Assembly: GCA_965140365.1 (NCBI GenBank)
Contig: OZ223196.1
Length of the DNA stretch: 64,000 nucleotides
Reading direction: 5' to 3' (one strand)
Source of the DNA: Hydrogenovibrio sp.
GTDB lineage: Bacteria; Pseudomonadota; Gammaproteobacteria; Thiomicrospirales; Thiomicrospiraceae
Shown piece after piece: positions 13,098 through 33,973 of the stretch (position 1 is the first letter of the stretch; each line of letters opens with the position of its first letter). Made by a program: the position numbers and the translations under genes. Under the pieces are notes generated by a model. It was given only the letters and a program-made list of their open reading frames with translations, had not been told where the DNA came from and made no database searches.

Positions 13098-13104
13098 ATA
13101 AATT

Positions 13105-14310: not shown

Positions 14311-14363
14311 TCCATAATAGATTATGGATTTGGATCGCAACATATTGGGCATACAGCTCTCAC

Positions 14364-15173: not shown

Positions 15174-15193
15174 AACTCTCTACTGGATTTCTA

Positions 15194-15226: not shown

Positions 15227-15254
15227 CTAATAGTCTAGATGGATTAGGTGAACA

Positions 15255-20300: not shown

Positions 20301-20792
20301 TTAGACATCCTAGTCGATGGTAAAAGAGTCGATCGAATGAGTAACCGGCAAGGGGCGGGATCCAATGGTGAACATATAGCACCTATGTATGTTGCTGCGG
20401 GCGCAGCTCTTGCAAAGGCTTATCGGCTCCACAGTAACAAAGGGAAGCAACGCGGTATTGGACTTATTTGCCTTGATGAGGCTTTTCATGGCATGGACAC
20501 AATCAACGCTATAGCTACAGCACGTTTCCTACAAAGCATTGGCTTGCAGCTCATTATGGCGGGGCCGGAGCTTGAACGCACTAAGCTGGCACCTGTAACT
20601 CAGACTATCTATGACCTGGATCGAGAAGGTTTGGATCTACAAATGGAACGGACCAAGTTCAAGGAGGCAGCCAACAAGCTGATGGTAAGTGATATGCCTG
20701 ACGAGAACCCTGAAATTATGAAAGGTGCGTATCAGCAACTCGGACTTGAACAGCCAACAGAATATGCACTTTCCAATGATGGTGGACAATGA
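17370..20792 (+). CDS. jetC: Wadjet JetC (SMC/MksB-like ATPase)
   Basis: 1140 aa with N-terminal Walker A FLGPNGSGKSSTLDAIQ, long coiled-coil-like E/K/L/Q-rich middle, a C-terminal signature-like GAGSNGE and Walker B/D-loop GLICLDEAFHGMD. Confidence 0.88.
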   Translation: MKQLKRISLVQFYLHEAVDIEVEGATAFLGPNGSGKSSTLDAIQIAMLGGNQQYIRFNTQSVSAKQRRSLAGYCLGMLRNPEKDSEVIGRARDEARTYIVLVFGNDMETEWVSAGICIEADSETDEHEVKGLFVLPGIALKADDCIVYDGSDQRPIPFADFRENAREQARKSGRTPIFTDKSSEYVQELLYSLNGERMPNSRQFMSSFVKSMTLKNVDSIDQFVRDYVVESNPVDIATFRKQVEQFIALRDLIMRTKARISQLEGIITDFDRAQQAECRIATLEAIKAVFNVEWLGEKIDNIETQIDTLKFQIKTAEGLAAYAKEQRDLKQDEITQLKVRLESDHKEQLRQRLEDQISSQRELITAYQHPEISRANRLISSLRELIDEPSFSAIRSLMSTVVDALVEARGSEDPGSALSKSIWKHDGNLSQIRIFSQSNLTTIQKKQNELTEERDAIRRRISAAAQTGRLLNDGAARLLDILNHAGMEAKPLSALLRISDPSWAPALEAYLGGDRDALIITEGNTREAVKLLRQARQSGIQVSGAAIIQPFHLRNIDTSAKGEEFALGVFETDDETARRFVWQKFGSMRLVDTELELETHPRAITRDGMLSQGGLTKSIRIVPISDLRIGKEVQDTSLLTRHASELQGELEQFEKHRKRVEGLEQALFTNANDDGQGVTEKLAEANEVINLANQKLKSLDVSHLDELKSLLNTAVSKHSEYDKQYTEHDRLAAGLKEQIGQCWERKKQQERQFPAIRQAEHEAVTNALVNKEWLDSMKDEIERAETSYDLRLKEVDRKLDYHTPRLRNAEEKASLELARYVQDERLDVQVADMEWHERYDWVLEEKMKLFDTELHRYEEEAELARQASEETLRSDIAMSLHDRFKEMELERRERNKILESCPSFTGGERYKFTAKVVPQYEALVRYINQIAQDDNNFSLFAENPDEINETLRDLVEAAADSGNASGVLDYRQFYTFDLDILVDGKRVDRMSNRQGAGSNGEHIAPMYVAAGAALAKAYRLHSNKGKQRGIGLICLDEAFHGMDTINAIATARFLQSIGLQLIMAGPELERTKLAPVTQTIYDLDREGLDLQMERTKFKEAANKLMVSDMPDENPEIMKGAYQQLGLEQPTEYALSNDGGQ

Positions 20793-22027
20793 TGTTGGGC
20801 TCAGGAGGGGATGCATGTGATAAGAGTATGCGTCGTCTTATCAAAAAGGCTGCGCGTGCTATTTTCGCAGATGGCGCACTGGAACCATCAGTGGAAAAGT
20901 TTTCGGTGAGTTTGCCAGCAACGAAATCGAGCTTGCAGGAGTACTATCGTCTTGAGCGCTTTGCAGATAGAGAGGAGTATCACGCGCGACTTCAGATCTA
21001 CTCAAAGGTAAAAGCGATAGCGGTAGATTGGGACCTCGGTGCAGGAGATAGAGGCCAGCTTGCTAGAGTAACGCTACTCGACCCTAAAGCAGTAGTGAAT
21101 ATCCTTGGTGAAGAATTACCTTGGGAAGTCGCATCGCGGGCCATTGCAAAAATAGAATCTGTCGCTAGAGAAGGGCTTCCTAATGTTGACCGGATTGTTG
21201 ATGACTGGCGTCGTGGGAAGGCCCCTGCCGGAGTGGCAGCCGAGCGTGCGAATCAACTGGTCGATAGCATGAATATCATTGATGCGGCGCAGAAACTTTC
21301 TGAAGGTGGACAAGATGTTTTGCTCCGGAAGCTGAGCGCCAGACTATTCCACGATAGTAAAAGGATAGAAGCGCTCTCTCGTCAGCTTGCTTTTCTTCTT
21401 GGAGAACCTACAGAAAGCGAACAAGAGGATGTTTTTGCAAGGTTGGGTTTGGTAAAACATCCTCAACCTATGCTTCTGAGTGGTCCAACGGGTTGCAAAA
21501 TTCAAATTGATGGGGAGGCCATTCCACTGGCGTACCCTTATCTAGGCGTCAGGCCGGACAATATTAGAGGTCTGATTTGTTCAAGTGATCGTATTCGGCG
21601 TGTTCTTACCATTGAGAATCTTGCTAGCTTCAACGAAGCAGCTGACAGCTCAGAAAACGCGAAGGATTTGCTGATCGTTTATCTTGCTGGTAACCCTACA
21701 CCATCTTTTCTTGCTGCATACAATCGAATACTTGGATCGTTAGAACCCACGAAAATACTGCACTGGGGCGACATTGACCTAGGAGGGTTTAGGATTGCGG
21801 CAAGGTTGGCCGATAGCGTCAAAACTATGGGCTACACTCTTGATCTTTGGCGAATGAATCCCTTAGAGGTAGTTACAGGCCAGCAAAAAACCGCTCCACA
21901 AAAGAAAATCGAAGAAGTATCAACAATATGTAAGAACTACGGATGGAGCAAGGAAGCCGAAGGACTGCAGAATTCCCCAGTTTTTCAGGAGCAAGAATTC
22001 ATCGACTGGGTTTCTCCGAATGATTAA
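20789..22027 (+). CDS. jetD: Wadjet JetD (Toprim nuclease subunit)
   Basis: 412 aa. The C-terminal Toprim-type acidic motifs are VLTIENLASFNE and LHWGDIDLGGFRI. It overlaps the jetC stop by 4 nt. Confidence 0.82.
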   Translation: MMLGSGGDACDKSMRRLIKKAARAIFADGALEPSVEKFSVSLPATKSSLQEYYRLERFADREEYHARLQIYSKVKAIAVDWDLGAGDRGQLARVTLLDPKAVVNILGEELPWEVASRAIAKIESVAREGLPNVDRIVDDWRRGKAPAGVAAERANQLVDSMNIIDAAQKLSEGGQDVLLRKLSARLFHDSKRIEALSRQLAFLLGEPTESEQEDVFARLGLVKHPQPMLLSGPTGCKIQIDGEAIPLAYPYLGVRPDNIRGLICSSDRIRRVLTIENLASFNEAADSSENAKDLLIVYLAGNPTPSFLAAYNRILGSLEPTKILHWGDIDLGGFRIAARLADSVKTMGYTLDLWRMNPLEVVTGQQKTAPQKKIEEVSTICKNYGWSKEAEGLQNSPVFQEQEFIDWVSPND

Positions 22028-22222
22028 ATGGGAGGGTGTGAAGATTCTGAGCACTCTCGATTGATCCCCTTTATATTGTTGTTTCATTCAAGATAGATTG
22101 AACAGTAAGAATGTTCAATCCTTCCCAAAAACCAGTTCGGCTGCTTCATGTTTAAACTTAATAGAAAATGTACGTCTTTGTCTTTTCGTGGAATACCTTA
22201 TTGTTGGTTTCATCTAGATATT

Positions 22223-22507
22223 TTAATCAAGTGCCCGACTCCTCTCCTCAAAATAATAAGCCAAGTATCGCCGTACCTGCTCCGGCCTGATCTTTTTCTG
22301 CAATCGCTTATCGAAAAAATTAACAATATTCGATTTCTCTTTATCACAAGCAGAATATTTGTACTTTTGAATTCGAAAGAATAACGCATCCTCCACCCAA
22401 TACGGAAACTCCAAATAAGGCGTTTTAATCATATAGCTAAACGTATTAGTGACTTGACAGGCCTTCACAAAGATTTCCGGCCAGCCCTGCAATAAATGAT
22501 AAAGCAT
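22223..22507 (-). pseudogene. relic 3' fragment of a second, diverged tniQ/tnsD-like gene
   Basis: The 94-aa translation ...LLQGWPEIFVKACQVTNTFSYMIKTPYLEFPYWVEDALFFRIQKYKYSACDKEKSNIVNFFDKRLQKKIRPEQVRRYLAYYF aligns colinearly with the C-terminus of the intact TniQ (29214..30347: ...LLQDWPEGFIKACKATNTSTHLIKTPYLEFPFWVTDTLFFHIKQYKYFACDEEKSNIVNFFKRRLKKKIKPTQIQRYLEYYF). Confidence 0.85.
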
Positions 22508-22509
22508 TG

Positions 22510-22725
22510 TGACCCTCCCTTAAAATAGGGGCATATTAAATTAGAGTTCTCCGGTTTATACTGAGCAAAACGGAGAGCATCATGAAAAAGTCACGTTATA
22601 GCGAAACACAGATCGTCAAGATTCTTAAAGAGGTCGAAGCCGGACGGCTGGTCAAAGAGGTTTGTCGGGATTATGGTATCTCGGACGCCACCTACTACAA
22701 CTGGAAAGCGATTAACTCCAGGTAA
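22510..22725 (+). mobile_element. IS3-family insertion sequence remnant (left end plus truncated orfA)
   Basis: TGACCCTCCC... terminus abuts the truncated tniQ relic. A 47-codon ORF (22582-22725), MKKSRYSETQIVKILKEVEAGRLVKEVCRDYGISDATYYNWKA..., matches the HTH N-terminus of IS3-family OrfA, and homology ends abruptly. Confidence 0.7.
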
Positions 22726-23185
22726 AGTATTTTTGAAAAGGCTAAGGTCTTTTCTTCAAAACCAACAACATTCCTTTTTTATTGCTTCCGGAAGTGACGC
22801 CAGCATATTAAATCTGTTTAGTGAGTATCACGAACCTTTTTTTAAAGCGGCTATTCAGTTAAAGGTTGATGTTAATGAAGAGCTGAAGCATCTGAATTGC
22901 TACTAATTTAGTAAGTTCACTGGAGGAATTGCAAAAATACACCTCCGTTATGAAAATTTTTACTACTCAAAAAAAATGGCGACAATACTCTATTCGGTTA
23001 TGTCAAAGTTTATTAAAAATTAATAGCTTTGGACATTAGAATTATGTACGAAATAACCTAGTAGAGCCCGGAGAAAAGAAATTAATGCTCCCAAATACTT
23101 TTATAATTAAATGGTGCGATTTGAAAAGTTTTGAAGATGAGTGATTTAAAGTCTGGTTTTTTAAAAGGCATATAAGGTTAATTTT

Positions 23186-24649
23186 ATGAGAAGCATCGGA
23201 GCCGTAATATTTGATTTAGATGATACTTTAGTAGCTACTAGCACACTGGAGGACTATAGAGTAAAAGGCGATAGGCAGGGCTTAGATGCAAATATACATA
23301 AATCTGTATTATTTAAGCCAGTGAAAGGAATGCTTCAAGCAATAAAAGACCGTGGTTTACCTTTAGGACTGGTCACTAACTCTCCTAGATGGTATGCAGA
23401 AAAGTTATTAAGGTATCATGAGATTGATATTTTTGATGCAGTGGTTTGCTATGACGATGTTGGTCAGGTTGGCATGAAACCATCACCTAATGGAATTAAG
23501 TTAGCTTTAGAAAAATTAGGTTTTGAGCATGGAGATAGGGCTGTCTATATAGGAGACCACGATAATGACTTCGTGGCCGCTTACGAAGCTGGAATAAAAC
23601 CCCTGGCCCCTTCATGGGCAAAAAGAAATCCAATTTCAAAAATACCGGCGGTGATTATTAGCTCTTCTACTCTCATTGATAATTTAAGCGATTATGAAGA
23701 ATTAAAGCTGATTGCCGATAGAACAGCGAAGCACAAGGCGTTTGATTTCCCTAAGAAACAAATGAATTTCATGCCGTTAAATGAAGATGGTAATCTTGTG
23801 CCAATTGAAAAAAATAAAATCAAGCTTATTACCTTTGGAAGGTACTTCAGCCAAAAATCAGCCTTAACCGCAAAATTACATGAAAGTCATCAGTTATCAA
23901 AGGATATTGTTGCAAAGGAAGAAAGTGAGACATATGTTATTCCTCAATATTATGTGAATTTAATTGCAAGGGTGGTAGAGCAATTACCATTGTATTTGTT
24001 CAGGGGAACGGGAAAAGTTTTTGATATAGTTACAGTTGTACCAGCCAAAAAAGAAAAGAATCCTAGGCTTGAAAATATGCTCAAAAGGGTTGCTAAATTG
24101 AATAGCTCAGAATCGATTTTTATTGAGGATTTATTTGAGTTTTCGAAAGGTGCACCGAGTTTAAAAACTTTGGGAGCAAAAGCAAATCGAGAAAGAGCAC
24201 TTCACGAAACGCTAAGCATAAAACAAAAGCATATTGGTTTGGTGAATGGAAAATCTATTCTGATTATTGACGATGTTATTACAACTGGCGCTACATTTAG
24301 CCATATATTTTCTCTTCTTGAAGGGGCAGGGGTAAGTTTTACCTTCGGAGCATGTTTAGCAAAGACGGTTAGTACATATGAAGACGCTCCTATTTGTCCG
24401 AAGTGCGGCAGGCAGATGCGAGTTAGAAAGCGCAAAGATGGATCTGGTATTCATTTTTATGGTTGTACTGGCTATTTTGAAGCAGAAAATAAGTGTAGTC
24501 ACACAGAGTCCATAAAGGTTAAAGATTGTCCCAGTTGTGGAAGGAAGATGGCCAAACAATATAACTCAAAAGAAAACAAGGTGTTTCTTGGGTGCGAGGG
24601 ATTTAGGGACAAAACAAACCCGTGTTCATATGTTGAGAGTTATAGGTAA
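23186..24649 (+). CDS. fusion protein: HAD-superfamily phosphatase + ComF-like phosphoribosyltransferase (PRTase) + two topoisomerase-type C4 zinc ribbons
   Basis: HAD motifs are VIFDLDDTLV (I), LVTNS (II), KPSP (III) and IGDHDNDFVAA (IV). The PRPP-binding loop is SILIIDDVITTGATF. The zinc ribbons are CPKCGRQM...FYGCTGYFEAENKCSH and CPSCGRKM...FLGCEGFRDKTNPCSY. Confidence 0.8.
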   Translation: MRSIGAVIFDLDDTLVATSTLEDYRVKGDRQGLDANIHKSVLFKPVKGMLQAIKDRGLPLGLVTNSPRWYAEKLLRYHEIDIFDAVVCYDDVGQVGMKPSPNGIKLALEKLGFEHGDRAVYIGDHDNDFVAAYEAGIKPLAPSWAKRNPISKIPAVIISSSTLIDNLSDYEELKLIADRTAKHKAFDFPKKQMNFMPLNEDGNLVPIEKNKIKLITFGRYFSQKSALTAKLHESHQLSKDIVAKEESETYVIPQYYVNLIARVVEQLPLYLFRGTGKVFDIVTVVPAKKEKNPRLENMLKRVAKLNSSESIFIEDLFEFSKGAPSLKTLGAKANRERALHETLSIKQKHIGLVNGKSILIIDDVITTGATFSHIFSLLEGAGVSFTFGACLAKTVSTYEDAPICPKCGRQMRVRKRKDGSGIHFYGCTGYFEAENKCSHTESIKVKDCPSCGRKMAKQYNSKENKVFLGCEGFRDKTNPCSYVESYR

Positions 24650-24651
24650 AT

Positions 24652-25543
24652 ATGGCTTCAAAAAATACGGAATCCCTCCTCGCATTGCGGTTTTTGAAGG
24701 GCGTTGGGAAAAAGTATCTAAATCAGATATCTTTATCGGCTGAGATAGCAGGCATTTCAGTAGAAAGCGCTTTTTTTTCCAGTAAATTGGGGCAAGGTAA
24801 ATTTGATGCTACTGAAGTGCAAGAGGCTTATGAGAAAGCTAAAGAGCAGATACGTATAGCAGAGGAAATGGGGCACAACATTATATCTAAGCTTGATGAT
24901 GTGTATCCAGATTCACTGAAAGAGTTGTCAGATGCTCCACCTGTATTATTTTGTGCAGGAAATTTATCTATCCTAAAAGAAAATATTGTCACTGTTATTG
25001 GAACGAGGTCTCCTACCGAACATGGGAAATATATTGCAAAAAAAGTGACTGATTGGTTTGTAGAAAATAACTGGGTAATTGCTAGTGGGCTTGCGAAAGG
25101 GATAGACACAATTGCGCATAAATCATGCTTAGAACGAGGCGGAAAGACAATTTCAGTGTTAGCTCATGGTTTGGAAAAAATATATCCAGCAGAAAACAGA
25201 GCGTTAGCTGAAGAAATTATTTCGTCAAATGGACTTTTAGTAACGGAATACGGGTATAACTCGTATGTTGGCAAATCCAATTTTGTTTGAGAGAGATCGT
25301 ATCCAAGCTGCCCTAGCAAAAGCAGTTCTGCTTGTTCAGTCCGGTTTAAATGGTGGGAGTTTGCATGCCTCAAGATCGATAATTAATTATGGTAGATATT
25401 TAGTTGTAGTTGGGCAGTCAAAAACCGATGTTGCTAATCAAGAACCAAATATTATGGCTAATGAATTACTGATAAATGGGGAAAAAAGTCAAAGGTTAAA
25501 AGGCCTCTTTATGGTGAGTACGGCGTTGAGTCTCAATATTTGA
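24652..25543 (+). pseudogene. DprA/Smf-like Rossmann-fold protein, split by a +1 frameshift near 25280-25290
   Basis: Frame 1 (24652-25290) reads ...YPDSLKELSDAPPVLFCAGN...VTVIGTRSPTEHGKYIAKKV...ASGLAKGIDTIAHKSCLERGGKTISVLAHGLEKIYPAENRALAEEI...VTEY...KSNFV*. Frame 2 (to 25543) continues the family pattern: ERDRIQAALAKAVLLVQSGLNGGSLHASR...GRYLVVVGQ. It starts 2 nt after the PRTase stop. Confidence 0.75.
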
Positions 25544-25618
25544 ATAAAGAGCTTTTTTAGGGAATAGAGTTTAGGTTGCGAGGAAGATATTTCAAAGTAA
25601 AAACTTATTATTTATTGT

Positions 25619-26326
25619 TTAAGTTATTGTTTCTTCTATCAAAGACCTGAAATCATGTAGGAGACTATTTTCAGGTGCTCCTCCATAAACAAGCCAACTG
25701 AAATGATCATCCAGTATTTCCAAAGCTTCATCTGATAGTTTGTATCCCGTAAATTCATACGACATTGAGTGAGCACCGATTGCTTGGGTGTGATCCAGTC
25801 TTAAAATCGATGATTCCCCATTTTTTATCGGAAGGTGATCCCACTGAAACTGTGGATATTCGCAATGCTTAACTCTTTCTACAAATGCTTCTGAATAGCC
25901 AGCCCTTGAGTCTTTTTTTGAGGCACCATAATACGGTGAAACTAAAACGGTTGGAGAGGTGGAATGGTTTGGCTTGCCTTGTGTTAGTTTTTTATCAATA
26001 TCTACTGGATTGGCATTTCCTATAACCAAACAATACCTTCTTTTAGCTCTATATGCAGCCCAAATCTCTGAGTCAGGTTTTGTCATTGCAGCAACAGGTA
26101 AAGAGGAAGCTTTAAATTTTTGTCCTACAGATAAGGGCTTAATAACAATGTCAGCCCCACTGTGATCAGTAGCGTTTGTTCTTCCAATGGGTTCAAAGGA
26201 GTATGGTCTATGATCTACATGAGGGATGAAAGCCTTGATTAGTGCCCCCCTAACTAAATTTTTCTCTGGGTGATCAATCCACCAGTTGTTTGATAGATTT
26301 TGTATACAGTCATCAGGATAAGTCAT
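25619..26326 (-). CDS. hypothetical protein, putative toxin partner of PanA (possible extended MazF/PemK-like fold)
   Basis: Overlaps the upstream Panacea-domain gene by 4 nt (ATGA). Block order VRGALIKAFIPH / KRRYCLVIGN / VLVSPYYG / SSILRLDHTQAIG...GYKLSDEALEILDDHF resembles the MazF/PemK motif order. This is my reading only. Confidence 0.4.
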   Translation of the reverse strand: MTYPDDCIQNLSNNWWIDHPEKNLVRGALIKAFIPHVDHRPYSFEPIGRTNATDHSGADIVIKPLSVGQKFKASSLPVAAMTKPDSEIWAAYRAKRRYCLVIGNANPVDIDKKLTQGKPNHSTSPTVLVSPYYGASKKDSRAGYSEAFVERVKHCEYPQFQWDHLPIKNGESSILRLDHTQAIGAHSMSYEFTGYKLSDEALEILDDHFSWLVYGGAPENSLLHDFRSLIEETIT

Positions 26327-27096
26327 TGCTTCCCTTTTCTCGTATCTGAACCCCAGACATCTGTAGAAAACTGAGCTTTTAGTCTGCCTGTAGGGAACTC
26401 TTCTCCAGCTAAAGTATCTAGCCAGTTTATTCCATCATTATAAATTTCATCATGCCTTGGTGTTGTGACCGGAATTAATTTTTTCTTGCCGAATGTTCTA
26501 GCTAACTTTAGTGCTTTTATTTTCTGACTAAAAGCTTTCTTTTTTTTATTTGAAATTTGTTCAAATCTTAGCATGACCTTTTCTATAGGAACCTTATCTT
26601 GGTCAGTGTAAATGGAAAAGTCGATATAGTCATTTGGAGCAGTGTTTAACATAGGTTCAGTTTGATAAACGAAACCAAGAAGCCCCTCAGTATCAGAAGA
26701 ATATTTTCTAATATTGTTTTTTAATTTGATGGTAATTTCAGAAGGAACCTCTCTAGACATTCTTTTTAATAAGTCATCGTCGGATATCTCCCAACGGACT
26801 ACGTCTTCATCTTTAAAGTGAGAATCAAATGAGTGTCTATTAGCTAGTATTGCTGAAGTCGCAGCATCTATTCTATTGTTTACTTGGAATGACCATGGCC
26901 CAAAGTGAAAGAATTGCCAATTAATTCCTGTAAATGAGGTTCCATTGTGTTTTTGGGCATAATAAAGGTCTGCAAGATATACATACTTAATTAAATGTAT
27001 AGGTCCCAGTCTTCGAGAGAGATAATCATCACCCTGCCCAGCAGTTAATAAGGCATATTGGATTATTAAATCTATATTCTTTTCGTTATACGACAA
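26323..27096 (-). CDS. Panacea (DUF4065, SocA-like) domain protein, putative PanA antitoxin
   Basis: N-terminal IQYALLTAGQG...LGPIHLIKYVYLADLYYAQKHNGTSFTGINWQFFHFGPWS matches the DUF4065 pattern (KLxKLLY.aD...G.p.....w....GPv). Confidence 0.65.
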   Translation of the reverse strand: MSYNEKNIDLIIQYALLTAGQGDDYLSRRLGPIHLIKYVYLADLYYAQKHNGTSFTGINWQFFHFGPWSFQVNNRIDAATSAILANRHSFDSHFKDEDVVRWEISDDDLLKRMSREVPSEITIKLKNNIRKYSSDTEGLLGFVYQTEPMLNTAPNDYIDFSIYTDQDKVPIEKVMLRFEQISNKKKKAFSQKIKALKLARTFGKKKLIPVTTPRHDEIYNDGINWLDTLAGEEFPTGRLKAQFSTDVWGSDTRKGKQ

Positions 27097-27533
27097 AGTT
27101 TTTTAGACCTTTAAAATTAAAAATTTGAAGGATTTTACTTTAACAAAAAACGTACTGCAACTCACTATGTCTTTATCGACTAATTTTCTGTTTTTATTAA
27201 AAATTTAAATATTGTTTTGAGCATATTGCACAAATCTTATTGAGTTTTTTTAAATTAAATTTAGAGTTAATCCATAAAGGTAAAAATATCGTTAGGGATG
27301 TAAAGCTTTTGGCCTGCGATATGTAAATGTTGGGTCTGAAAAGTTTTTTTACTGCAAGTGATTATTGTGTAGTATGAGGTGTTAGAGAAAAAGGTATTTT
27401 CCCATTATGTCGGTTTCAGGATTATTGTTCTTCTTAAGAATTGTTCGGGGTGGAACTATTAAGGATTTATTTTTAGGGGAGGAGTTACGGGATTTTAAAT
27501 GGAATTCATAAAATTACAAAATAAGTTAACTCC

Positions 27534-29027
27534 TTAACATAAAGGATGATTTGCATAGTGCTCGTTAAGTGTATCAACCATGCTGGTTAGCCTTTTGGAT
27601 TTTGCATAATTTATAATTTGTGCACCATCTTTCCAGTCGATTTTGTATTTTTTTATTTTTTCTTGTCGAGTCTTTAAATATTCTTTAGCTTCTGAAGAGA
27701 AGGTTCCACTTGTCCAGTATTCAAAGATTATTGCCCTATGCTCAAAGAAAGGTTGTTCTTTTAAGCTTTTGTAAATGATGCCTATTTTTTTAAACCATGT
27801 TTGTATTTCGGCAATCTGAATTTCTCTGTTTGGCTGGTATCCTTTGCATTCATAAATAGCGACCTCGTGGTCACCTTTTATTCTTCGGACATCAATTTCA
27901 GCTTTTTGGTTATCTAAATTATGAACCTTCACTCCAATATCGATGGTATCTCCTTCCGCCTTTAGAACAATGTGCCCTACAAGTAGCTCAAATAAAGCTC
28001 CTCGAACATTTATGGCTGCCCCTTCAATTTTGCTTAAAGAGTTCAGTAATTTATACAATTGATCAGGGTTTGTAGCTGCTAATGCACTAGCGTTTTCAAG
28101 GGTGTTTGCCAAAGAATGCAAGCTTTTAGCAACCTCAGAACCGAACATGATTTCAGGTGTTGTAAATACAAGGCCTGAAGATTTGCCTAATATAAATGCT
28201 TCTTTAGTAAACCTCTCGGCCATTAAGATGCTTAAGAAAGGCCTGATTTGTTTTATAGATCGATTGGCTTCACACTTCTTAATAAAATACTTTGCAGCAT
28301 TTTCATCTATGGCAGAGTATGTGGCATCAATTACTACAAATCCTGGAGTAAGCTTTCCTGAGTTGAAGTGTCTGAAGGGGTGTAAGTAGCATGGCGCTGT
28401 AATATCCCAACCAAATTGACCAAATTTAGGAATGTCATCAATAGTTCTCTTCTTGATTGCATTGTAACTGCCGAAGCCGGTTTTTTGGACCCAATCTGCT
28501 ATTGCATCTACTAGTATGTCATCTAGGATTTTCTGATTTTTGTTGATGTCATTGTTGTATTCAAAGAAAAAGGGAGTTAATTTTAAGATTGAACCGTAGC
28601 TTGGATCTATTTCTTCCAGTAATATTTTTGATTTGATTAGTTGCTCCATAACTTTATCGCTTGATAAATGTTTTTTTAACCTTTCTGGAGCTCCGCTAAT
28701 GATTTCAAAATGATTTTTAGGAATCCAGCCCCCCTTTGAAATCACAGAGCTAATGGCAAGGCCGTAAGCCGTGTTTGATTCTATGTGTGCCTTGTATAGG
28801 TTATTCCAAAACTCAGGGGTTCCAAATTGGTCTTCCAGATATAAAAATGATTCTCGTCTCGGTAATTGAATAGAGGTGAATTTGTTTATTTTTCCCATAG
28901 ATGCTCTAGAAATTCTCTGTCTAGCTGATGCATCACTTACACCTGACTTTATTAAGTACGCCTTGATTTTTGAAGATGGTAATGGCCCATGTTTTTTTAG
29001 TAGGTATGGTATGGATAAAGTTGACAT
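27534..29027 (-). CDS. hypothetical protein (orf497) with N-terminal wHTH-like region and C-terminal PD-(D/E)xK nuclease-like motif
   Basis: N-terminus reads KKHGPLPSSKIKAYLIKSGVSDASARQRISRA. C-terminus reads ALFELLVGHIVLKAEGDTIDIGVKVHNLDNQKAEIDVRRIKGDHEVAIYECKGY (E...D...E-x-K arrangement). It lies 186 bp downstream of tniQ on the same strand. Confidence 0.5.
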   Translation of the reverse strand: MSTLSIPYLLKKHGPLPSSKIKAYLIKSGVSDASARQRISRASMGKINKFTSIQLPRRESFLYLEDQFGTPEFWNNLYKAHIESNTAYGLAISSVISKGGWIPKNHFEIISGAPERLKKHLSSDKVMEQLIKSKILLEEIDPSYGSILKLTPFFFEYNNDINKNQKILDDILVDAIADWVQKTGFGSYNAIKKRTIDDIPKFGQFGWDITAPCYLHPFRHFNSGKLTPGFVVIDATYSAIDENAAKYFIKKCEANRSIKQIRPFLSILMAERFTKEAFILGKSSGLVFTTPEIMFGSEVAKSLHSLANTLENASALAATNPDQLYKLLNSLSKIEGAAINVRGALFELLVGHIVLKAEGDTIDIGVKVHNLDNQKAEIDVRRIKGDHEVAIYECKGYQPNREIQIAEIQTWFKKIGIIYKSLKEQPFFEHRAIIFEYWTSGTFSSEAKEYLKTRQEKIKKYKIDWKDGAQIINYAKSKRLTSMVDTLNEHYANHPLC

Positions 29028-29213
29028 AAATTAGACCTCCAGATCCCTATTGTCACACTGCGCTATTTATAATATTACTATAATGTTGAGAGGATGTTTT
29101 TCATGTCTAAAATTAAGTTATTATAAATCAACGTGTTATATTGAATTAAACATGTTTTTTATAATATTGGTTGTCACAGTTTTTCTTTAGAGCTGGCGTT
29201 AAGAAAAGCTGTT

Positions 29214-30347
29214 TTAACTTTTGCGGATACCTCTAAAATAGTATTCTAAGTAACGTTGTATCTGTGTTGGCTTAATCTTTTTCTTTAACCGTCTCTTGAA
29301 AAAATTAACGATATTCGATTTTTCCTCGTCGCACGCGAAATATTTGTATTGCTTGATATGAAAAAACAGCGTATCAGTTACCCAAAACGGAAATTCTAAA
29401 TAGGGAGTTTTAATCAAGTGAGTTGACGTATTAGTTGCTTTGCATGCTTTTATAAAGCCCTCTGGCCAGTCCTGTAATAAGCAATAAATCATGATTAATC
29501 CGGTGCGCCGTAAACTAATATTAAGCCTTTCTGGTTCAACATTGTGGCCAATCAATTCTCGATGGTATATTTGCTCCAAACCCAAGTTTTGACGCAAGTG
29601 CATAAACAGTTCTTCGCCCTTTGGGCTGCACACCAAAAACGACAACAAACGCCGGATGCCCTCAAAATACAGATTTGAATAGTTAAACTCCAGATCTCCG
29701 GCATGGCCATACCCGAGAGAGGACTGCAAAAAATTGATGCAATTGATTTCATATTCATCGCCAATGGTCGGAACAAATTCGGTCTCGCGCAAATCAAAAC
29801 CACATTTTGAGCAGTGAACGATATCGAGCGGCTGGTAAAGAACTTCCTCTTCATGTTTTTGCAGTCGTTTCAGATCAATCGGGTTACGGCACTTAGGGCA
29901 TCGATCATGTAACTGTACGGAATGGTATGGGCAGGCTGTCATAAACCCTAATCGCCAGTGCTTTCGAAAATAAGGCCTGTCACCGTCTTCTGCCAGACAG
30001 CAAGGGCAGTATTGCAAGCTAAATAACTTTTTCCCTGTCTGTCTTATGCCAAGGGGCATTACCCATTTGACCTGGTTTGTCTTCCCAGTCTGGTTGTAAA
30101 AATACTCGCAGGAGCCATAAAACGGTAAGCGCCGGATTTGTGTTTCATTCAGTCCTGTTCTTTCAAGAATGGACGACATTCTTTTCTCGTTTAAGAATAC
30201 ATCAAGATCACTTTTCCAAGACTCCACATCTTTGGTAATCAGGGTCGCTAATTGAGTTGGCTTCATTCCATACAACAAAGCATTTCGGGCAATCCAAGAT
30301 GTCATCAGTTCATCTTTAAATGGTGGGTCAAGAATGTACCGTCTCAT
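29214..30347 (-). CDS. tniQ: TniQ/TnsD-family target-selection protein
   Basis: TniQ N-terminus DELMTSWIARNALLYGMKPTQL and zinc-ribbon cysteines CPCCLAED...CPYHSVQLHDRCPKCRNPI. It follows tnsC immediately. Confidence 0.85.
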   Translation of the reverse strand: MRRYILDPPFKDELMTSWIARNALLYGMKPTQLATLITKDVESWKSDLDVFLNEKRMSSILERTGLNETQIRRLPFYGSCEYFYNQTGKTNQVKWVMPLGIRQTGKKLFSLQYCPCCLAEDGDRPYFRKHWRLGFMTACPYHSVQLHDRCPKCRNPIDLKRLQKHEEEVLYQPLDIVHCSKCGFDLRETEFVPTIGDEYEINCINFLQSSLGYGHAGDLEFNYSNLYFEGIRRLLSFLVCSPKGEELFMHLRQNLGLEQIYHRELIGHNVEPERLNISLRRTGLIMIYCLLQDWPEGFIKACKATNTSTHLIKTPYLEFPFWVTDTLFFHIKQYKYFACDEEKSNIVNFFKRRLKKKIKPTQIQRYLEYYFRGIRKS

Positions 30348-30349
30348 AT

Positions 30350-31261
30350 CTAACGCATCCGTTTGAGCAAGTCCTTTCGTTTCGACGCCGGTACCAAGTT
30401 CAAGTCTCCGAAAACCGATTCATCAATGGAAGGCAAGTCATGACGAATTGCGTATACGGCCAAACGTTTGATGATTAAAATCAACTCGCCAATCAAGCCT
30501 TCACTTAAATAATGCAGCTGTTCAATAAATGGCTTTTTGTATAGAAAGGATGGTTCCGGCAGAGGAAGCCTTGTTTCAATGGTAGCAATTAATTGGGCGA
30601 AAGCCTTACGGTTTTCTTTGGAATCAAACGCCCATCGTTCCAGCACTTCTACCTGAAACCGGTTCGCCATTTGTGAGTCTACCTGTATTGCGTGAAAAGC
30701 ATCCTCAATGCCGGCACCGACAATTGGAATTCTTAAAGCGTTACTCAAGTCCTTAATGCTATTGAGGAAGCCTTTTTGAGCATTGTAGGAGCCGGCGATG
30801 ATGTGTTGGATTTCATCAATAATCAACATCCGGGTTTCCCGTGCGTTCATAGCTCGAATAATTTTCTGGCGCTTGACCTCCAGGCTGTCGTTCTTCGCGT
30901 AAGGCACAATCATTTCTTCTAACACCCGGATTAGAAAAGCGTTTTCATCCGGTTTGGCCGGAGCTGAGATAAAGACAACCGGCTGGCGATTTGTATAGTC
31001 TTCTTCATCCGTCGTCAAAGGGTAGCGGTTGGCAAAGCGCTTCAGAATTTGTGTCTTGCCATTATTGCTGTCACCGACAATTAATAGGTTCGGCATTCTT
31101 TCGACTTTTGGATAAGAGATGAAATCTTCTATCCGTTCAAGAATTTGTTGTGCTCTTGGGTACCCAATCCATTTGTCGAGATTGATGTATTCGATGCGTT
31201 CCTCTTTTGGCGCACCTAATAAATCAAAGGCCTTGTCTAACAAGTGATTGTATTGACTCAT
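30350..31261 (-). CDS. tnsC: TnsC/TniB-type AAA+ transposition regulator
   Basis: 303 aa with Walker A LLIVGDSNNGKTQIL and Walker B MLIIDEIQHI. It overlaps the tnsB stop by 4 nt. Confidence 0.88.
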   Translation of the reverse strand: MSQYNHLLDKAFDLLGAPKEERIEYINLDKWIGYPRAQQILERIEDFISYPKVERMPNLLIVGDSNNGKTQILKRFANRYPLTTDEEDYTNRQPVVFISAPAKPDENAFLIRVLEEMIVPYAKNDSLEVKRQKIIRAMNARETRMLIIDEIQHIIAGSYNAQKGFLNSIKDLSNALRIPIVGAGIEDAFHAIQVDSQMANRFQVEVLERWAFDSKENRKAFAQLIATIETRLPLPEPSFLYKKPFIEQLHYLSEGLIGELILIIKRLAVYAIRHDLPSIDESVFGDLNLVPASKRKDLLKRMR

Positions 31262-33195
31262 TGTTCAATGTCCTCAAATGGTTGGATGTCGTCAAAATCC
31301 TCATCGTCAATACTCTCAATTGAAGGAGTCAGTATTGAACCTATGCTGTAATCATCTCCAGCTTGGGTTGCTAGAGAAGGAATGGACTCTTTTTGTCGGA
31401 TGGCTTCTTTTTGTTTGGCGCGCCGGACATGCTTGGTTTCTTTTTTGGCCTGCTCAGTCAGCCGTTTCAATCGGGCTCGGGCTTCGAATATAGCCTCTTC
31501 ATCCGCTTTTTGTGAAGGATTAGCTTCTTTCGCACGGCGTTTCAGCTCTCTCAACTCCCAAAGTGAAATCGCCGGGTGACTGGTGTCACGGTACGGTACC
31601 ACGACATAGGACTCCATATCTGGATCGTAAAAGAAAACCGAGCTCAAATCCCGCGGGTCATAGCGCACAATGAACTTTTGAACGTTCTTTCGCGTTTTGT
31701 CCGGTTGCTTAATCCATTTACGTAATACATCATGAAAGTAGTCAATGCCGAATAACTGGATGCCATATTTCTGGACACTTCTTTCTACGTAGGGCAGAAA
31801 ATCAATCTTCAACTTAAGTGGATTGTCGACTTTTGGCGGGATGCCCCTTCCTAACTGTTTACCATCGCCGAGAATGCCTTGTTTATACTTTTGGAGAGGT
31901 GACATGCCGATTTCGGAATGCCTCTCGAGATGGTAATGATTCACTAAAAATTCGGTGAAGTATTGTTCAAATTCTGATAATGTAAAAATAGCATTTCCAG
32001 CAGAATCGTATTCCTTTTTGTCTTGAATGTTGGATTTAGTGGTGCCTGGTAACGTATGAAGCTCAGCATCATTAAATGTCTTGAATGATCGTTCAACATG
32101 AGGCCCATAACGGGGTGTTCTTGACGGCCTTTTGGTCATGCTGATCTGATAGGTATCACATGCTTTTTTTAGTGAATTACTGTGGAATTCTTTACCGTTA
32201 TCGGTATGGATGACATCCATAATTCCGAAGGCTGGCCAATCTCCTTTAACGTCATGATCAAGTAGCCATTGCTTTTTATCGAGAATAGCATGAGCTAAGC
32301 AAAGTCCAGTCAGAAGGGTGTTTGGTTTTTCCAATGAAATATAGAAGCCTACGACCATTCGACTGTAAACATCGATTGCCAAGGTTATGATTGGGCGCCC
32401 TATATCAAGACGGTACTCGTCATCGACAATAGTTAAGTCCATAGGTGTGTGGTCAATTTGTACTACAGCAAGAGGCTTGTCTATTCTTGGAAACTTTCCG
32501 GTTATAGGCCTGAAGTTTTCACGACCTTTTCGGCCTTCTCTTTTGGTGGCGACTTCCGATGCACTAAGTTGTGAGATACGAACTCTAAGAGTGTTGATAT
32601 GAGGTGTAGAAAGTAGTTCGAGACCAGGTAGTTTTCGTTCTTTGTTAATTTCAAAAATCTCTAATGCTAAGTCACGATAAATATTCGTCACTCTGGGTTG
32701 AATCGGGCTTAGATAAATTCCAATGTATTTCTGTATTAACTCTTCAACTTCGGGCTGCAAACGGCCATATTCTTTTCGTTTTTTTCTGAGTAGGGATAAC
32801 GGATTTCCGTTTGATTTTTTGTATTTTTGTAACTGTTTGTAAGCCGTCGGTTCGGAGATGCCTAGTTTGCCGGCGACTTCTTGGAGTTTTGCCCGTCTTT
32901 CAACTTCATCGTTAACCTGCATGACTTGATTAAACAGCATGGCTTTATTGTTGGCCTTAATCCAATCTTCGTCCGGAATGGTTAACAGTTCTGTTGCGGG
33001 GATAACTTCAATAGGCTTTTCGGGGTCTGCCGGTTGAGATGATAATTCAGAAACATGTAACTTTTTAACGGTACCTGTAAACGAGCTGCGGACAGATACG
33101 TGTTCCAGGTCAAGCACTCCGATTACCCTGTAGCGTGAGTTACCATGAAATACTTCGGCGCCGATTTCAAAATGGGTTTCACTCATTGTTTTCAT
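31258..33195 (-). CDS. tnsB: TnsB DDE transposase (Mu/Tn7 family)
   Basis: 645 aa with candidate DDE residues in VVQIDHTPMDL, VIHTDNGKEFHS and PRYGPHVERSF, and an N-terminal HTH region (GISEPTAYKQLQKYK). Confidence 0.9.
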   Translation of the reverse strand: MKTMSETHFEIGAEVFHGNSRYRVIGVLDLEHVSVRSSFTGTVKKLHVSELSSQPADPEKPIEVIPATELLTIPDEDWIKANNKAMLFNQVMQVNDEVERRAKLQEVAGKLGISEPTAYKQLQKYKKSNGNPLSLLRKKRKEYGRLQPEVEELIQKYIGIYLSPIQPRVTNIYRDLALEIFEINKERKLPGLELLSTPHINTLRVRISQLSASEVATKREGRKGRENFRPITGKFPRIDKPLAVVQIDHTPMDLTIVDDEYRLDIGRPIITLAIDVYSRMVVGFYISLEKPNTLLTGLCLAHAILDKKQWLLDHDVKGDWPAFGIMDVIHTDNGKEFHSNSLKKACDTYQISMTKRPSRTPRYGPHVERSFKTFNDAELHTLPGTTKSNIQDKKEYDSAGNAIFTLSEFEQYFTEFLVNHYHLERHSEIGMSPLQKYKQGILGDGKQLGRGIPPKVDNPLKLKIDFLPYVERSVQKYGIQLFGIDYFHDVLRKWIKQPDKTRKNVQKFIVRYDPRDLSSVFFYDPDMESYVVVPYRDTSHPAISLWELRELKRRAKEANPSQKADEEAIFEARARLKRLTEQAKKETKHVRRAKQKEAIRQKESIPSLATQAGDDYSIGSILTPSIESIDDEDFDDIQPFEDIEQ

Positions 33196-33859
33196 CCTTG
33201 GAATATTCAGGTTTTACCCAGATTAATTGATTCATGTTGAGCGGGGTTGATAAGTCGGTGGTGACTAGTTGGTTTGAGACGGCATACCAGAGTGTATTTA
33301 GGAACTCTGCTTGCTCCATTTCATCGGTTGAACAAAGAGCTAATAGTTCGTTAATTGGGGTTGGTTGACCTCTGGATAAAATCTTTTGAATGGTTGCAAG
33401 TTGGTATTTTTCGAATGGGCGGTTTTTGTAGGGGAGGAGAAAGGTGACGTTTTGTAAGAATGGGGAGAGAATCTCTTGTTCAGTCCATATCCTAAATCGT
33501 GTGTTGGGTTCTGATTTTAATTCCCGTATAGCAGCTTTAAACTTTGGTTTTAGTTTTTCCCAGTCTTTTTTGAGGTCGCTCCTGTATTTCACCTCGATAT
33601 ACAGCAATCTTCCATCTTTAAACTTAATCAAAATATCAGGCGTATAATGTCTTTTTTTACCATCATGAATGAATTCAAATCGCCTTGGCTGAGTTTTGAA
33701 TTTTTCAATTTGGTCATCAAACTCACATAGCAGAAGTGCTTTGCGTTCAAGGCCAGATTCAAAGTGAGTATATTCATCACTTTTATTACTGTGTACATGG
33801 CCGGTAATGTTACGATAACTTAATGGAATTTTTCTGGCTGGCATGGCAAGCATTCTCAT
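33179..33859 (-). CDS. tnsA: TnsA endonuclease
   Basis: Contains FESGLERKALLLCEFD, HYTPDILIKF and LLYIEVKYRSDL, the restriction-endonuclease-like E/D/K arrangement of TnsA. It is the first gene inside the right end. The true start may be the internal Met at 33844. Confidence 0.85.
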   Translation of the reverse strand: MRMLAMPARKIPLSYRNITGHVHSNKSDEYTHFESGLERKALLLCEFDDQIEKFKTQPRRFEFIHDGKKRHYTPDILIKFKDGRLLYIEVKYRSDLKKDWEKLKPKFKAAIRELKSEPNTRFRIWTEQEILSPFLQNVTFLLPYKNRPFEKYQLATIQKILSRGQPTPINELLALCSTDEMEQAEFLNTLWYAVSNQLVTTDLSTPLNMNQLIWVKPEYSKDENNE

Positions 33860-33966
33860 TTATTATTGTAGGATTTTTGGTTTCTGTACTATCTTTTAAC
33901 TCAGATTATCAATTAATTTTGTAGAAAATGGCATTTTTACTCCCGATATTATCATTTAATTTTGTA
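33852..33966 (-). repeat. right-end TnsB-binding-type repeats (3 spaced copies)
   Basis: Read on the minus strand: tacaaaattaaatgataat (33966-33948), tacaaaattaattgataat (33923-33905) and the weaker tacaataataaatgagaat (33870-33852). Confidence 0.7.
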
Positions 33967-33973
33967 TTTGACA

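What the first reader, a model, noticed from the sequence alone, without database searches (positions are those of the whole stretch)
27534..29027. Orphan 497-aa wHTH / PD-(D/E)xK-like protein in the tnsE/tnsF position
orf497 follows tnsA-tnsB-tnsC-tniQ on the same strand after a 186-bp gap, the slot occupied by a second target selector (TnsE or TnsF) in other Tn7-family elements. It has an N-terminal wHTH-like segment and a C-terminal E…D…ExK arrangement (ALFELL…GDTIDIG…AEIDVRR…IYECKGY). comM-targeting Tn6022-like elements have been reported to use TnsF, an inactivated tyrosine recombinase. I see no R…HxxR…Y recombinase pattern here, so this element may use a different selector, or orf497 is a stand-alone nuclease defence gene. 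The relic tniQ at 22223-22507 is not followed by a comparable gene, which argues for cargo.
Basis: inference. Interest (0 to 1): 0.6.

Follow-up and report, generated by a model that had tools for sequence, protein, structure and literature searches.

The report
Cargo nuclease gene, not transposon selector
The 497-aa gene after tniQ is a mobile single-gene nuclease, probably a defence gene, carried as cargo by a comM-inserted Tn7-like transposon; close relatives of that transposon sit at the same comM site without it, so it is not the target selector.

Summary
The ORF is real. It lies on the minus strand (29027..27534), 186 bp after tnsA-tnsB-tnsC-tniQ. A confident AlphaFold model (pLDDT 89.8) shows two N-terminal winged helices, a NucS-like PD-(D/E)xK-like middle domain, and a C-terminal Mrr/AF1548-like nuclease. 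Its E347, D379, E393 and K395 are conserved.

It is not an orphan. I found more than 138 homologues, 357 plasmid records and a 3,853-member ESM Atlas cluster. In 11 sampled contexts (ICE-like contig, satellite-like island, prophage, integrase islands, plasmids) no Tn7 gene is adjacent.

It is not TnsF. It has no Cys in its first 200 residues and no similarity to a TnsF-like protein from a related genome.

Comparative genomics settles the main question. Thiomicrospira sp. S5 has the same core (TnsABC 99%) at the same comM codon, with other defence genes after tniQ. Three further sister elements also lack orf497. It lies in a 1.9-kb window-specific segment (27374-29277). Next to it is a 44-codon tnsF relic (27270-27401). 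The TnsE-like gene is orf606, at the far end (9202-11022).

Verdict: orf497 is cargo, most likely a stand-alone restriction-like defence nuclease whose function is untested. How this TnsF-less element targets comM codon 368 remains open.

The parts
27534..29027 (-). orf497 CDS (497 aa, P0001)
   Evidence: Open frame with ATG start. AF2 model: mean pLDDT 89.8, pTM 0.81.
28578..29027 (-). Residues 1-150: two tandem winged-helix domains (predicted DNA binding)
   Evidence: Secondary structure H-H-H-b-b occurs twice. Matches: TFIIIC eWH, Z 7.4 over residues 1-82; SAMD1 and KAT6A WH-DNA complexes, Z 6.0-6.1; SelB tandem WH over residues 2-159, Z 6.0.
28119..28550 (-). Residues 160-303: PD-(D/E)xK-like middle domain (NucS/EndoMS nuclease-domain fold) with a non-canonical conserved D208/D234/K251
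   Evidence: NucS 2vld: Z 8.2, rmsd 2.7 A, 106 aligned. EndoMS 5gke: Z 8.1. Conservation. Whether it is catalytically active is unknown.
27570..28019 (-). Residues 337-486: Mrr/AF1548/Card1-like PD-(D/E)xK nuclease domain with E347, D379, E393-x-K395
   Evidence: AF1548 1y88: Z 13.5, rmsd 2.0 A, 121 aligned, 22% identity. Profile alignment to the Card1 nuclease motifs. Pfam Mrr_cat_2 is sub-threshold at 18.3 bits against a cut-off of 22. Residue conservation.
29028..29213 (-). 186-bp AT-rich spacer between tniQ and orf497, with GGAGG at 29040-29036. The proximal 55 bp are shared with the ICE-borne homologue.
   Evidence: Sequence read. 77% DNA identity to L003 over window 27510-29082. Promoter-like matches are not above chance.
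27374..29277 (.). 1.9-kb segment specific to this genome, holding orf497. It is bounded by the end of homology to H. thermophilus CP035033 (27373) and the start of homology to Thiomicrospira sp. S5 (29278, inside the last 64 bp of tniQ). GC is 35%.
   Evidence: megablast. GC: 0.351 here, 0.39-0.44 for core genes, 0.51 for chromosomal flanks.
27270..27401 (-). Relic 3' end (44 codons) of a Tn6022-type tnsF-like gene
   Evidence: Match to residues 439-482 of the 482-aa Cys-rich TnsF-like protein of G781: E 4e-17, 80% identity. Translation. It is the only such match in the whole genome.
29214..30347 (-). tniQ (377 aa, short form)
   Evidence: Pfam TniQ, 8e-22.
30350..33859 (-). tnsC (TniB), tnsB and tnsA core genes
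   Evidence: Pfam TniB 2e-67; Mu-transpos_C and rve; Tn7_TnsA-like_N and _C.
9202..11022 (+). [quoted passage not shown]
   Evidence: The seven best PDB matches of its AF2 model are all TnsE C-terminal domains (5d17, 5d16, 9d5l; prob 0.96-1.0, TM by target 0.44-0.57). UniRef names the 97% homologue 'TnsE C-terminal domain-containing'. It is conserved in sister elements.
8863..33973 (.). Whole Tn7-like element (25.1 kb) with TGT...ACA termini. The TACAAAATTAA repeats lie at the two ends: three at the left end (one with one mismatch) and two at the right end. The 5-bp duplication GCTGT is at 8858-8862 and 33974-33978. The element is inserted at comM codon 368.
   Evidence: Sequences read. Repeat scan; its only other hit is a single one-mismatch match at 13892. 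Removing the element and one duplicate restores a 510-aa ComM in frame.
22247..22534 (-). Relic tniQ 3' fragment
   Evidence: 63% identical to TniQ residues 277-372, with one in-frame TAA.

Best explanation
orf497 is a cargo gene of the comM-inserted Tn7-like element. It is not part of the transposition or targeting machinery.

It encodes a self-contained, four-module DNA nuclease:
- two winged helices, predicted to bind DNA;
- a NucS-like PD-(D/E)xK-like domain, either a second active site or a DNA-sensing/dimerisation module;
- a helical linker;
- an intact Mrr/AF1548-type PD-(D/E)xK cleavage domain.

The gene moves as a single-gene module between plasmids, prophages, an ICE-like element, genomic islands and this transposon.

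The most likely role is a solitary restriction-like defence nuclease. The winged helices would recognise foreign DNA, either modified DNA as Mrr and DpnI do, or an unusual DNA structure. The C-terminal domain would then cut it.

Shown here: the fold, the conserved catalytic residues, mobility, absence from sister transposons and lack of a conserved partner gene. Inferred: nuclease activity, the substrate and the defence phenotype.

My confidence is about 0.9 for 'cargo, not selector' and about 0.55-0.6 for 'defence nuclease'.
For: (1) Sister elements lack it.
- Thiomicrospira sp. S5 CP014470 has TnsA, TnsB and TnsC 99% identical, TniQ 93% and orf606 97%. It has the same comM junctions. After tniQ it carries a DNA methylase, a GmrSD_N protein and an AAA ATPase.
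- Two elements with TniQ 70-75% identical carry a type III R-M system there.
- Hydrogenovibrio sp. SC-1 carries an unrelated convergent ORF there.

(2) H. thermophilus CP035033 carries 99.6-99.9% identical cargo (window 9080-27373) but no orf497.

(3) orf497 lies in a 1.9-kb, 35% GC segment unique to this genome. 77% DNA identity to an ICE-like contig carrying TraU covers only the gene and its immediate flanks.

(4) Eleven independent homologue contexts show no Tn7 gene. They are: an ICE-like contig, a satellite-like island with AbiE and Fic, the Morganella prophage slot between tail fibre and integrase, a Pantoea plasmid, an integrase island with methylases and HNH, a Salmonella island, a chromosomal HicB islet, a ParB plasmid-like contig beside an MmeI-Mtase/SNF2 cluster, IncF and IncI plasmids, and 3.6-kb ColE1-type plasmids where it is the only cargo.

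(5) No neighbour is conserved across these contexts.

(6) Distribution is patchy: 1 of 401 genomes sampled in the phylum has it.

(7) Fold and residues support a nuclease.

(8) Atlas clusters of 316-338 aa match residues 2-335 alone (TM 0.83-0.87). This suggests an N-terminal module separable from the nuclease effector.

(9) The rest of the cargo is defence: Wadjet JetABCD, Shosta and a WYL/BrxR regulator. Tn7-like cargo is known to be enriched in defence systems (PMC8649781).
Against: - There is no experimental evidence for nuclease or defence activity in any family member that I could find.
- There is no match in PADLOC-DB 2.0.0 or PHROGs.
- Pfam matches are below the gathering cut-off.
- There is no match among 50,697 deposited phage genomes.
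- Its abundance on conjugative and tiny plasmids would also fit a plasmid-biology role.
- The substrate is a guess, and no modification-reading pocket was identified.
- In this genome orf497 is physically attached to the core side of a recombination junction. This window alone could therefore not exclude a core role.
Confidence: 0.6

Rival explanations
1. orf497 is a co-opted second target selector. It would be a TnsF or TnsE substitute that binds comM through its winged helices and recruits TniQ and TnsC.
For: It lies directly after a short TniQ (377 aa) on the same strand. The element has no intact tnsF anywhere in the genome, yet it sits precisely in comM. Its size (497 aa) resembles TnsF (498 aa, PMC10293859). 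It has DNA-binding domains. Tn7-like elements are known to co-opt diverse selectors (PMC10293859).
Against: A 99%-identical TnsABC core in Thiomicrospira sp. S5 occupies the same comM junction without it, and three other sister elements also lack it (35/36, 73, 75). Homologues are outside Tn7 elements in all 11 sampled contexts. The catalytic residues are strictly conserved, whereas domesticated selectors tend to lose activity (PMC10293859). There is a 186-bp gap rather than the overlapping tniQ-tnsF arrangement. There is no Cys-rich zinc-finger region and no similarity to a TnsF-like protein (E 0.82).
Confidence: 0.04
2. orf497 serves the mobile elements that carry it rather than the host. 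It could be a structure-specific nuclease used in element replication, recombination or resolution, or a weapon against competing plasmids.
For: The middle domain resembles NucS/EndoMS, a branched-DNA and mismatch nuclease. There are 357 plasmid records, 193 of them conjugative. It is the only cargo gene on 3.6-kb ColE1-type plasmids. It sits in a conserved HEPN-hyp-X-DUF4238 cluster on IncF and IncI plasmids.
Against: It has no fixed position relative to replication, transfer or integration genes. It occurs in prophage moron slots and chromosomal islets next to toxin-antitoxin and restriction genes. Sister transposons and near-identical cargo manage without it.
Confidence: 0.2
3. orf497 is the toxin or effector of a multi-gene system together with the downstream o257 (weak SocA/Panacea antitoxin-like match) and o235.
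For: o257 has a sub-threshold Panacea domain match (E 2e-4). The genes lie on the same strand, 437 bp apart.
Against: In H. thermophilus CP035033, o257 and o235 are 99.6-100% identical and present without orf497. No homologue context has related neighbours. A tnsF relic separates the two.
Confidence: 0.04

Closest known systems
Mrr-type / AF1548-type PD-(D/E)xK restriction endonucleases (type IV and related solitary nucleases; compare also DpnI, which pairs a nuclease domain with a winged helix)
   Same: The C-terminal domain superposes on AF1548 (Z 13.5, rmsd 2.0 A over 121 residues) and has an E...D...ExK site. Winged-helix DNA-binding domains are fused to a cleavage domain. No cognate methyltransferase is next to it in the sampled contexts.
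   Different: It does not reach the Pfam Mrr_cat or Mrr_cat_2 thresholds, and no Mrr_N domain was detected. It has two winged helices plus an extra NucS-like PD-(D/E)xK-like domain and a helical linker. Modification dependence is untested.
Tn6022 TnsF (Orf3/TniE), the comM target selector (PMC10293859, PMC11014353)
   Same: Similar length (497 vs 498 aa). It follows a short tniQ in a comM-inserted Tn7-like element. It is predicted to bind DNA.
   Different: There are no zinc fingers: 0 Cys in the first 200 residues, against 26 in the TnsF-like protein of G781. There is no sequence similarity (E 0.82). Its domains are assigned to winged-helix and nuclease folds. It is not conserved in sister elements. 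It does not overlap tniQ. The insertion site is codon 368, not the site about 20 codons upstream of Walker B that the TnsF-bearing element in G781 uses.
Card1/Can2 and NucS/EndoMS nuclease domains; NERD-domain stand-alone effectors such as ZwsA (bioRxiv 10.64898/2026.04.06.716636)
   Same: The motifs GxxFE...EhDV...ECK align to Card1. The middle domain matches the NucS nuclease domain. 14% of the Atlas cluster carries NERD. ZwsA is likewise a multidomain stand-alone effector with an E/D/E/K site.
   Different: There is no CARF or other nucleotide-sensor domain. ZwsA is reported to cut RNA.
FokI / Nt.BspD6I type IIS enzymes
   Same: Winged-helix-type recognition modules are followed by a helical linker and a separate PD-(D/E)xK cleavage domain. 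Foldseek ranks FokI first (E 2.5e-5). The cleavage domains align at Z 8.8-9.3.
   Different: The global superposition is poor (rmsd about 19 A). There is no partner methyltransferase. The recognition part has a different composition.

Membership tests
TnsF (Tn6022-type comM selector) | N-terminal array of zinc fingers in the first ~200 residues (PMC10293859) | tested here: not met
   orf497 has 4 Cys in all, 0 in the first 200 residues and no CxxC. The TnsF-like protein of G781 has 30 Cys, 26 in the first 200 and 12 CxxC.
TnsF (Tn6022-type comM selector) | Tyrosine-recombinase-derived CB1/CB2/pCAT fold | tested here: inconclusive
   No recombinase appears among the listed structural matches, which by itself does not exclude it. 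Every domain is, however, positively assigned to a winged-helix or PD-(D/E)xK fold in a pLDDT 89.8 model. BLASTP against the G781 TnsF-like protein gives E 0.82.
TnsF (Tn6022-type comM selector) | Operonic with (overlapping) a short tniQ and conserved across related elements | tested here: not met
   There is a 186-bp gap. The gene is absent after tniQ in four sister elements, including one with a 99% identical TnsABC.
TnsF (Tn6022-type comM selector) | Required for insertion into comM | not testable with these tools
   This needs a transposition assay.
TnsE | TnsE C-terminal domain fold; in Tn6022-group elements the gene lies at the end distal from tnsABC | tested here: inconclusive
   No TnsE chain is among the listed matches for orf497. 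orf606 (9202-11022) does match TnsE C-terminal domains as its top seven hits and lies at the distal end.
PD-(D/E)xK nuclease superfamily (Mrr/AF1548/NERD-like) | alpha-beta-beta-beta-alpha-beta core fold | tested here: met
   Residues 342-486 against AF1548 1y88: Z 13.5, rmsd 2.0 A, 121 aligned. Many restriction and defence nucleases follow at Z 7-10.
PD-(D/E)xK nuclease superfamily (Mrr/AF1548/NERD-like) | Catalytic acidic residues plus (D/E)xK lysine | tested here: met
   E347, D379, E393 and K395 are invariant or kept in at least 90% of 44 homologues at 31-72% identity. They align with the Card1 motifs.
PD-(D/E)xK nuclease superfamily (Mrr/AF1548/NERD-like) | Reaches a curated Pfam family threshold (Mrr_cat, Mrr_cat_2, NERD) | tested here: not met
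   Mrr_cat_2 scores 18.3 bits against a cut-off of 22. Only 1-2 of 44 members touch Mrr_cat_2, NERD or DUF234 at E<0.01.
Type IV (modification-dependent) restriction enzymes | Solitary nuclease without a cognate methyltransferase | tested here: met
   No adjacent methyltransferase in the window or in 10 of 11 homologue contexts. In L012 the nearest is two genes away, within another cluster.
Type IV (modification-dependent) restriction enzymes | Cleavage depends on modified bases | not testable with these tools
   This needs biochemistry.
Catalogued anti-phage defence systems (PADLOC-DB 2.0.0) | Match to a system model | tested here: not met
   No PADLOC hit for orf497 or for its IncF-plasmid homologue.

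The most novel reading that the evidence does not exclude
The orf497 family is an undescribed single-gene anti-phage/anti-plasmid defence system. Its architecture is tandem winged helices, a NucS-like module and an Mrr-like nuclease. Its Atlas cluster has about 3,900 members, and it occurs on 357 PLSDB plasmids, including common Klebsiella and E. coli IncF and IncI plasmids. Its two nuclease-fold domains might let one polypeptide sense and cut foreign DNA.
Probability: 0.45. Interest if true: 0.5.

Novelty: new variant of a known kind. Interest (0 to 1): 0.35.

Why it matters
A new protein selector for comM would have been a notable addition to Tn7 biology, but the evidence is against that.

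What remains is a widespread, uncharacterised nuclease family. It rides on many mobile elements, including clinically common enterobacterial plasmids, and is a reasonable candidate for functional testing as a defence gene.

The work also exposes a comM-targeting Tn7-like lineage that has TnsE but no TnsF. It uses a second site in comM (codon 368, near the conserved GPLLDRID motif). This is a concrete case of the 'short TniQ without an identifiable partner' problem raised in PMC10293859.

Tried and rejected
- The search for related loci with the 44-sequence alignment failed because no stretch was conserved enough.
- The profile search of 400 other genomes of the phylum found nothing.
- Genome and metagenome scans with TniQ each gave a single locus.
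- tblastn against 50,697 phage records found no match.
- PHROGs, NCBIfam and PADLOC gave nothing for orf497. PADLOC also gave nothing for the plasmid gene cluster around its homologue.
- Promoter and terminator scans were not above chance, so the transcription unit is unresolved.
- The search of earlier scan findings returned nothing.
- No tyrosine recombinase or TnsE chain appeared in the Foldseek or VIA-align lists for orf497. I treat this as non-exclusive.
Their assignments therefore rest on whole-model searches.
- I did not run a TniQ-orf497 or homodimer complex prediction, because the report does not claim binding.
- A toxin-antitoxin link to o257/o235 was considered and rejected.
Full report
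**1. The observation**

The ORF exists at 27534-29027, but on the minus strand. Upstream on that strand lie four core genes (Pfam):
- tnsA (33859-33179)
- tnsB (33195-31258)
- tnsC/TniB (31261-30350)
- tniQ (30347-29214, 377 aa)

The spacer between tniQ and orf497 is 186 bp, with a GGAGG eight bases before the ATG.

**2. The element**

comM is split into a 5' part (7759-8868) and a 3' part (33928-34407). The element runs from 8863 to 33973.
- Its termini are TGT...ACA.
- The TACAAAATTAA repeats lie at the two ends: three at the left end (one with one mismatch) and two at the right end. The scan's only other hit is a single one-mismatch match at 13892.
- It is flanked by a 5-bp duplication, GCTGT.

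Removing the element and one duplicate restores a 510-aa ComM in frame. The insertion is at codon 368 (GRC|SDTPEQ), 58 codons after the Walker B motif ILFLDE.

The cargo includes:
- an NA37 protein;
- a WYL/BrxR regulator;
- Wadjet JetABCD;
- a relic tniQ;
- Shosta;
- a gene pair with a weak Panacea-domain match;
- orf497.

**3. What orf497 encodes**

It is not an orphan.
- A word-indexed search returned 138 cluster representatives, down to about 32% identity. They come from Pseudomonadota, Acidobacteriota, Thermodesulfobacteriota and others, and all are annotated as hypothetical.
- 357 PLSDB plasmids carry 27-39% identical homologues.
- An ESM Atlas cluster of 3,853 members matches the whole model at TM 0.86.

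An AlphaFold2 model built on 44 homologues is confident (pLDDT 89.8, pTM 0.81). Foldseek and two VIA-align searches, one of them exhaustive over 48,161 chains, assign the domains as follows:
- Residues 1-150 are two winged helices. Matches are eWH at Z 7.4, SAMD1 and KAT6A WH-DNA complexes at Z about 6, and SelB tandem WH over residues 2-159.
- Residues 160-303 match the NucS/EndoMS nuclease domain (Z 8.2, rmsd 2.7 A).
- Residues 342-486 match AF1548, an Mrr-like endonuclease (Z 13.5, rmsd 2.0 A, 121 residues). Card1/Can2, Nt.BspD6I/FokI cleavage domains, AspBHI, MspJI, SduA and Avs nuclease domains follow at Z 7-10.

E347, D379, E393 and K395 are invariant or nearly so. They align with the Card1 catalytic motifs.

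The middle domain conserves D208, D234 and K251 in a non-canonical arrangement. Whether it is active is unknown.

Pfam gives only sub-threshold Mrr_cat_2, NERD and DUF234 matches. NCBIfam, PADLOC and PHROGs give nothing.

**4. Is it TnsF or TnsE?**

Published TnsF is 498 aa, overlaps a short tniQ, and has multiple zinc fingers in its first ~199 residues. These are followed by recombinase-derived CB1/CB2/pCAT domains (PMC10293859).

orf497 has no cysteine in its first 200 residues.

A TnsF-like protein turned up in a relative, H. thermophilus CP035033 (handle G781):
- It is a 482-aa protein with 26 Cys and 12 CxxC motifs in its N-terminal part.
- It overlaps a 352-aa TniQ.
- It belongs to a core only 30-35% identical to the window's core.
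- That core is inserted at comM codon ~288, about 20 codons upstream of Walker B. This fits the Walker-B-directed targeting described for TnsF.

orf497 shows no similarity to this protein (E 0.82).

The window's genome holds only a 44-codon 3' relic of such a gene, at 27270-27401, immediately downstream of orf497.

The TnsE-like gene of the window's element is orf606 (9202-11022). It lies at the distal end on the opposite strand, as described for Tn6022 Orf4/TnsE (PMC11014353).
- The 97% homologue is named 'TnsE C-terminal domain-containing' by UniRef.
- The seven best PDB matches of its model are all TnsE C-terminal domains (prob 0.96-1.0). Their E-values are weak, 5e-3 to 8e-2.

**5. Comparative genomics of the element**

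Thiomicrospira sp. S5 (CP014470) carries the same element at the same comM junctions.
- TnsA, TnsB and TnsC are 99% identical, TniQ 93% and orf606 97%.
- DNA homology to the window runs from the flank through tnsA to window position 29278. That is 64 bp before the tniQ stop.
- Downstream of tniQ it has a DNA methylase, a GmrSD_N protein, an AAA ATPase and a 325-aa protein.

Two metagenomic elements (TniQ 70-75% identical) have a convergent type III R-M system there. Hydrogenovibrio sp. SC-1 (TniQ 75%) has an unrelated convergent ORF.

So the position after tniQ is where variable, defence-rich cargo begins.

G781 shares the window's cargo from orf606 to o257 at 99.6-99.9% DNA identity (window 9080-27373). 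It lacks orf497 genome-wide with this query.

orf497 therefore sits in a 1.9-kb segment (27374-29277; GC 0.35 against 0.39-0.44 for the core and 0.51 for the chromosome). This is the only part of the island not shared with either relative.

The nearest homologue (72% protein identity, 77% DNA identity) lies beside traU in an ICE-like contig. The DNA similarity covers just the gene, 55 bp upstream and 24 bp downstream. This is the signature of a single-gene module.

The tniQ and tnsF relics indicate that the island is a mosaic built by repeated recombination between comM-resident elements. The order of those events is my inference.

**6. Contexts of homologues**

No Tn7 gene is adjacent in any sampled place:
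- an ICE-like contig;
- a satellite-like island with integrase, primase and terminase-like genes, next to AbiE and Fic;
- the Morganella prophage slot between tail fibre and integrase;
- a Pantoea plasmid;
- an integrase island with methylases and HNH;
- a Salmonella island;
- a chromosomal islet beside HicB;
- a ParB-bearing plasmid-like contig beside Fic and an MmeI-Mtase/SNF2 cluster;
- IncF and IncI plasmids, in a HEPN-hyp-X-DUF4238 cluster;
- 3.6-kb ColE1-type plasmids, where it is the only cargo gene.

Neighbours are not conserved between contexts. Only 1 of 401 sampled genomes of the phylum has the gene.

**7. Mechanism**

The best-supported reading is a stand-alone DNA nuclease carried as cargo. 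The winged helices are predicted to bind DNA. The C-terminal domain has everything needed for metal-dependent cleavage.

The lack of a linked methyltransferase argues for one of two modes. One is modification-dependent (type IV-like) recognition. The other is recognition of a DNA structure typical of invaders. The NucS-like domain keeps the second option open.

Shorter Atlas proteins that match residues 2-335 alone suggest a separable sensing module.

Activity, substrate and phenotype are all inferred.

Rival readings, with my probability for each:
- a plasmid or mobile-element maintenance or competition nuclease (about 0.2);
- a toxin paired with o257/o235 (about 0.04, contradicted by G781);
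- a co-opted selector (about 0.04).

**8. What stays open**

This Tn6022-group lineage has a short TniQ and a TnsE but no TnsF. How it finds comM codon 368 is not explained.

The tnsA-proximal end faces the conserved GPLLDRID segment (codons about 384-391). That is a plausible binding site for TniQ or a host factor, but this is inference. It is an example of the 'TniQ too short, no identifiable partner' class noted in PMC10293859.

**9. Verdict**

The sequence features are confirmed. The 'orphan' label and the 'selector slot' reading are not.

orf497 is a mobile cargo nuclease of an uncharacterised but widespread family. It is a new architectural variant of known winged-helix plus PD-(D/E)xK restriction-like enzymes. 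It is moderately interesting as a defence candidate.

Noticed in passing
window 27270-27401 (-): A relic of the last 44 codons of a Tn6022-type tnsF-like gene lies between orf497 and o257. It is the only TnsF-like sequence in the genome. The intact gene sits at the equivalent place in H. thermophilus CP035033.
   Followed up: yes
window 9202-11022 (+), with a conserved 104-aa ORF at 11041-11355: [quoted passage not shown] It is conserved (42-97% identity) in all sister elements seen. A small downstream ORF is also conserved (93-100%) in two relatives.
   Followed up: partly
window 8858-8862 / 33974-33978; comM 7759-8862 + 33979-34407: This Tn7-like lineage inserts at comM codon 368, near the GPLLDRID motif, and has no TnsF. 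A TnsF-bearing Tn6022-like element in a sister genome uses codon ~288, upstream of Walker B. So comM has two distinct attachment sites, and the selector for the first is unknown.
   Followed up: partly
window 9080-27373 vs L031/L034 (H. thermophilus CP035033): About 18 kb of cargo (orf606, NA37, a 401-aa protein, BrxR/WYL, JetABCD, relic tniQ, Shosta, o235/o257) is 99.6-99.9% identical between two genomes. It is attached to two unrelated Tn7 cores (30-35% identity) at different comM sites. This implies cargo exchange by recombination that leaves tniQ and tnsF 3' relics.
   Followed up: partly
window 22247-22534 (-): The relic tniQ C-terminal fragment is 63% identical to the resident TniQ and 85% to that of a metagenomic sister element. 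It has one in-frame TAA. An identical copy is present in CP035033.
   Followed up: partly
window 23186-25290 (+): A Shosta-like pair. ShosA (DprA-like) gives PADLOC 2e-61. ShosT carries an N-terminal HAD hydrolase domain, a PRTase-like region and zinc ribbons (PADLOC ShosT 5e-12).
   Followed up: no
window 14364-22027: A type I Wadjet operon, JetABCD, is preceded by a divergent WYL/BrxR-type regulator. Upstream lies an NA37 nucleoid-associated protein and a 401-aa protein with no family match.
   Followed up: no
window 25619-27096 (-): Two overlapping genes, o257 (weak SocA/Panacea antitoxin-domain match, E 2e-4) and o235 (no match). This may be a Panacea-type toxin-antitoxin pair.
   Followed up: no
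L028 (pKF3-94, 5478-10017) and L029 (pSE11-1, 5518-10042): On IncF and IncI enterobacterial plasmids the 27% homologue sits in a conserved five-gene cluster: HEPN-family nuclease, a 259-aa protein, the homologue, a DUF4238 protein and a 96-aa protein. None of these matches PADLOC 2.0.0.
   Followed up: partly
L016 2506-5530: A metagenomic contig has a comM 5' fragment followed by a 41% orf606 (TnsE-like) homologue, so another element of this lineage is present. An orf497 homologue lies 4.5 kb away, outside that element.
   Followed up: partly
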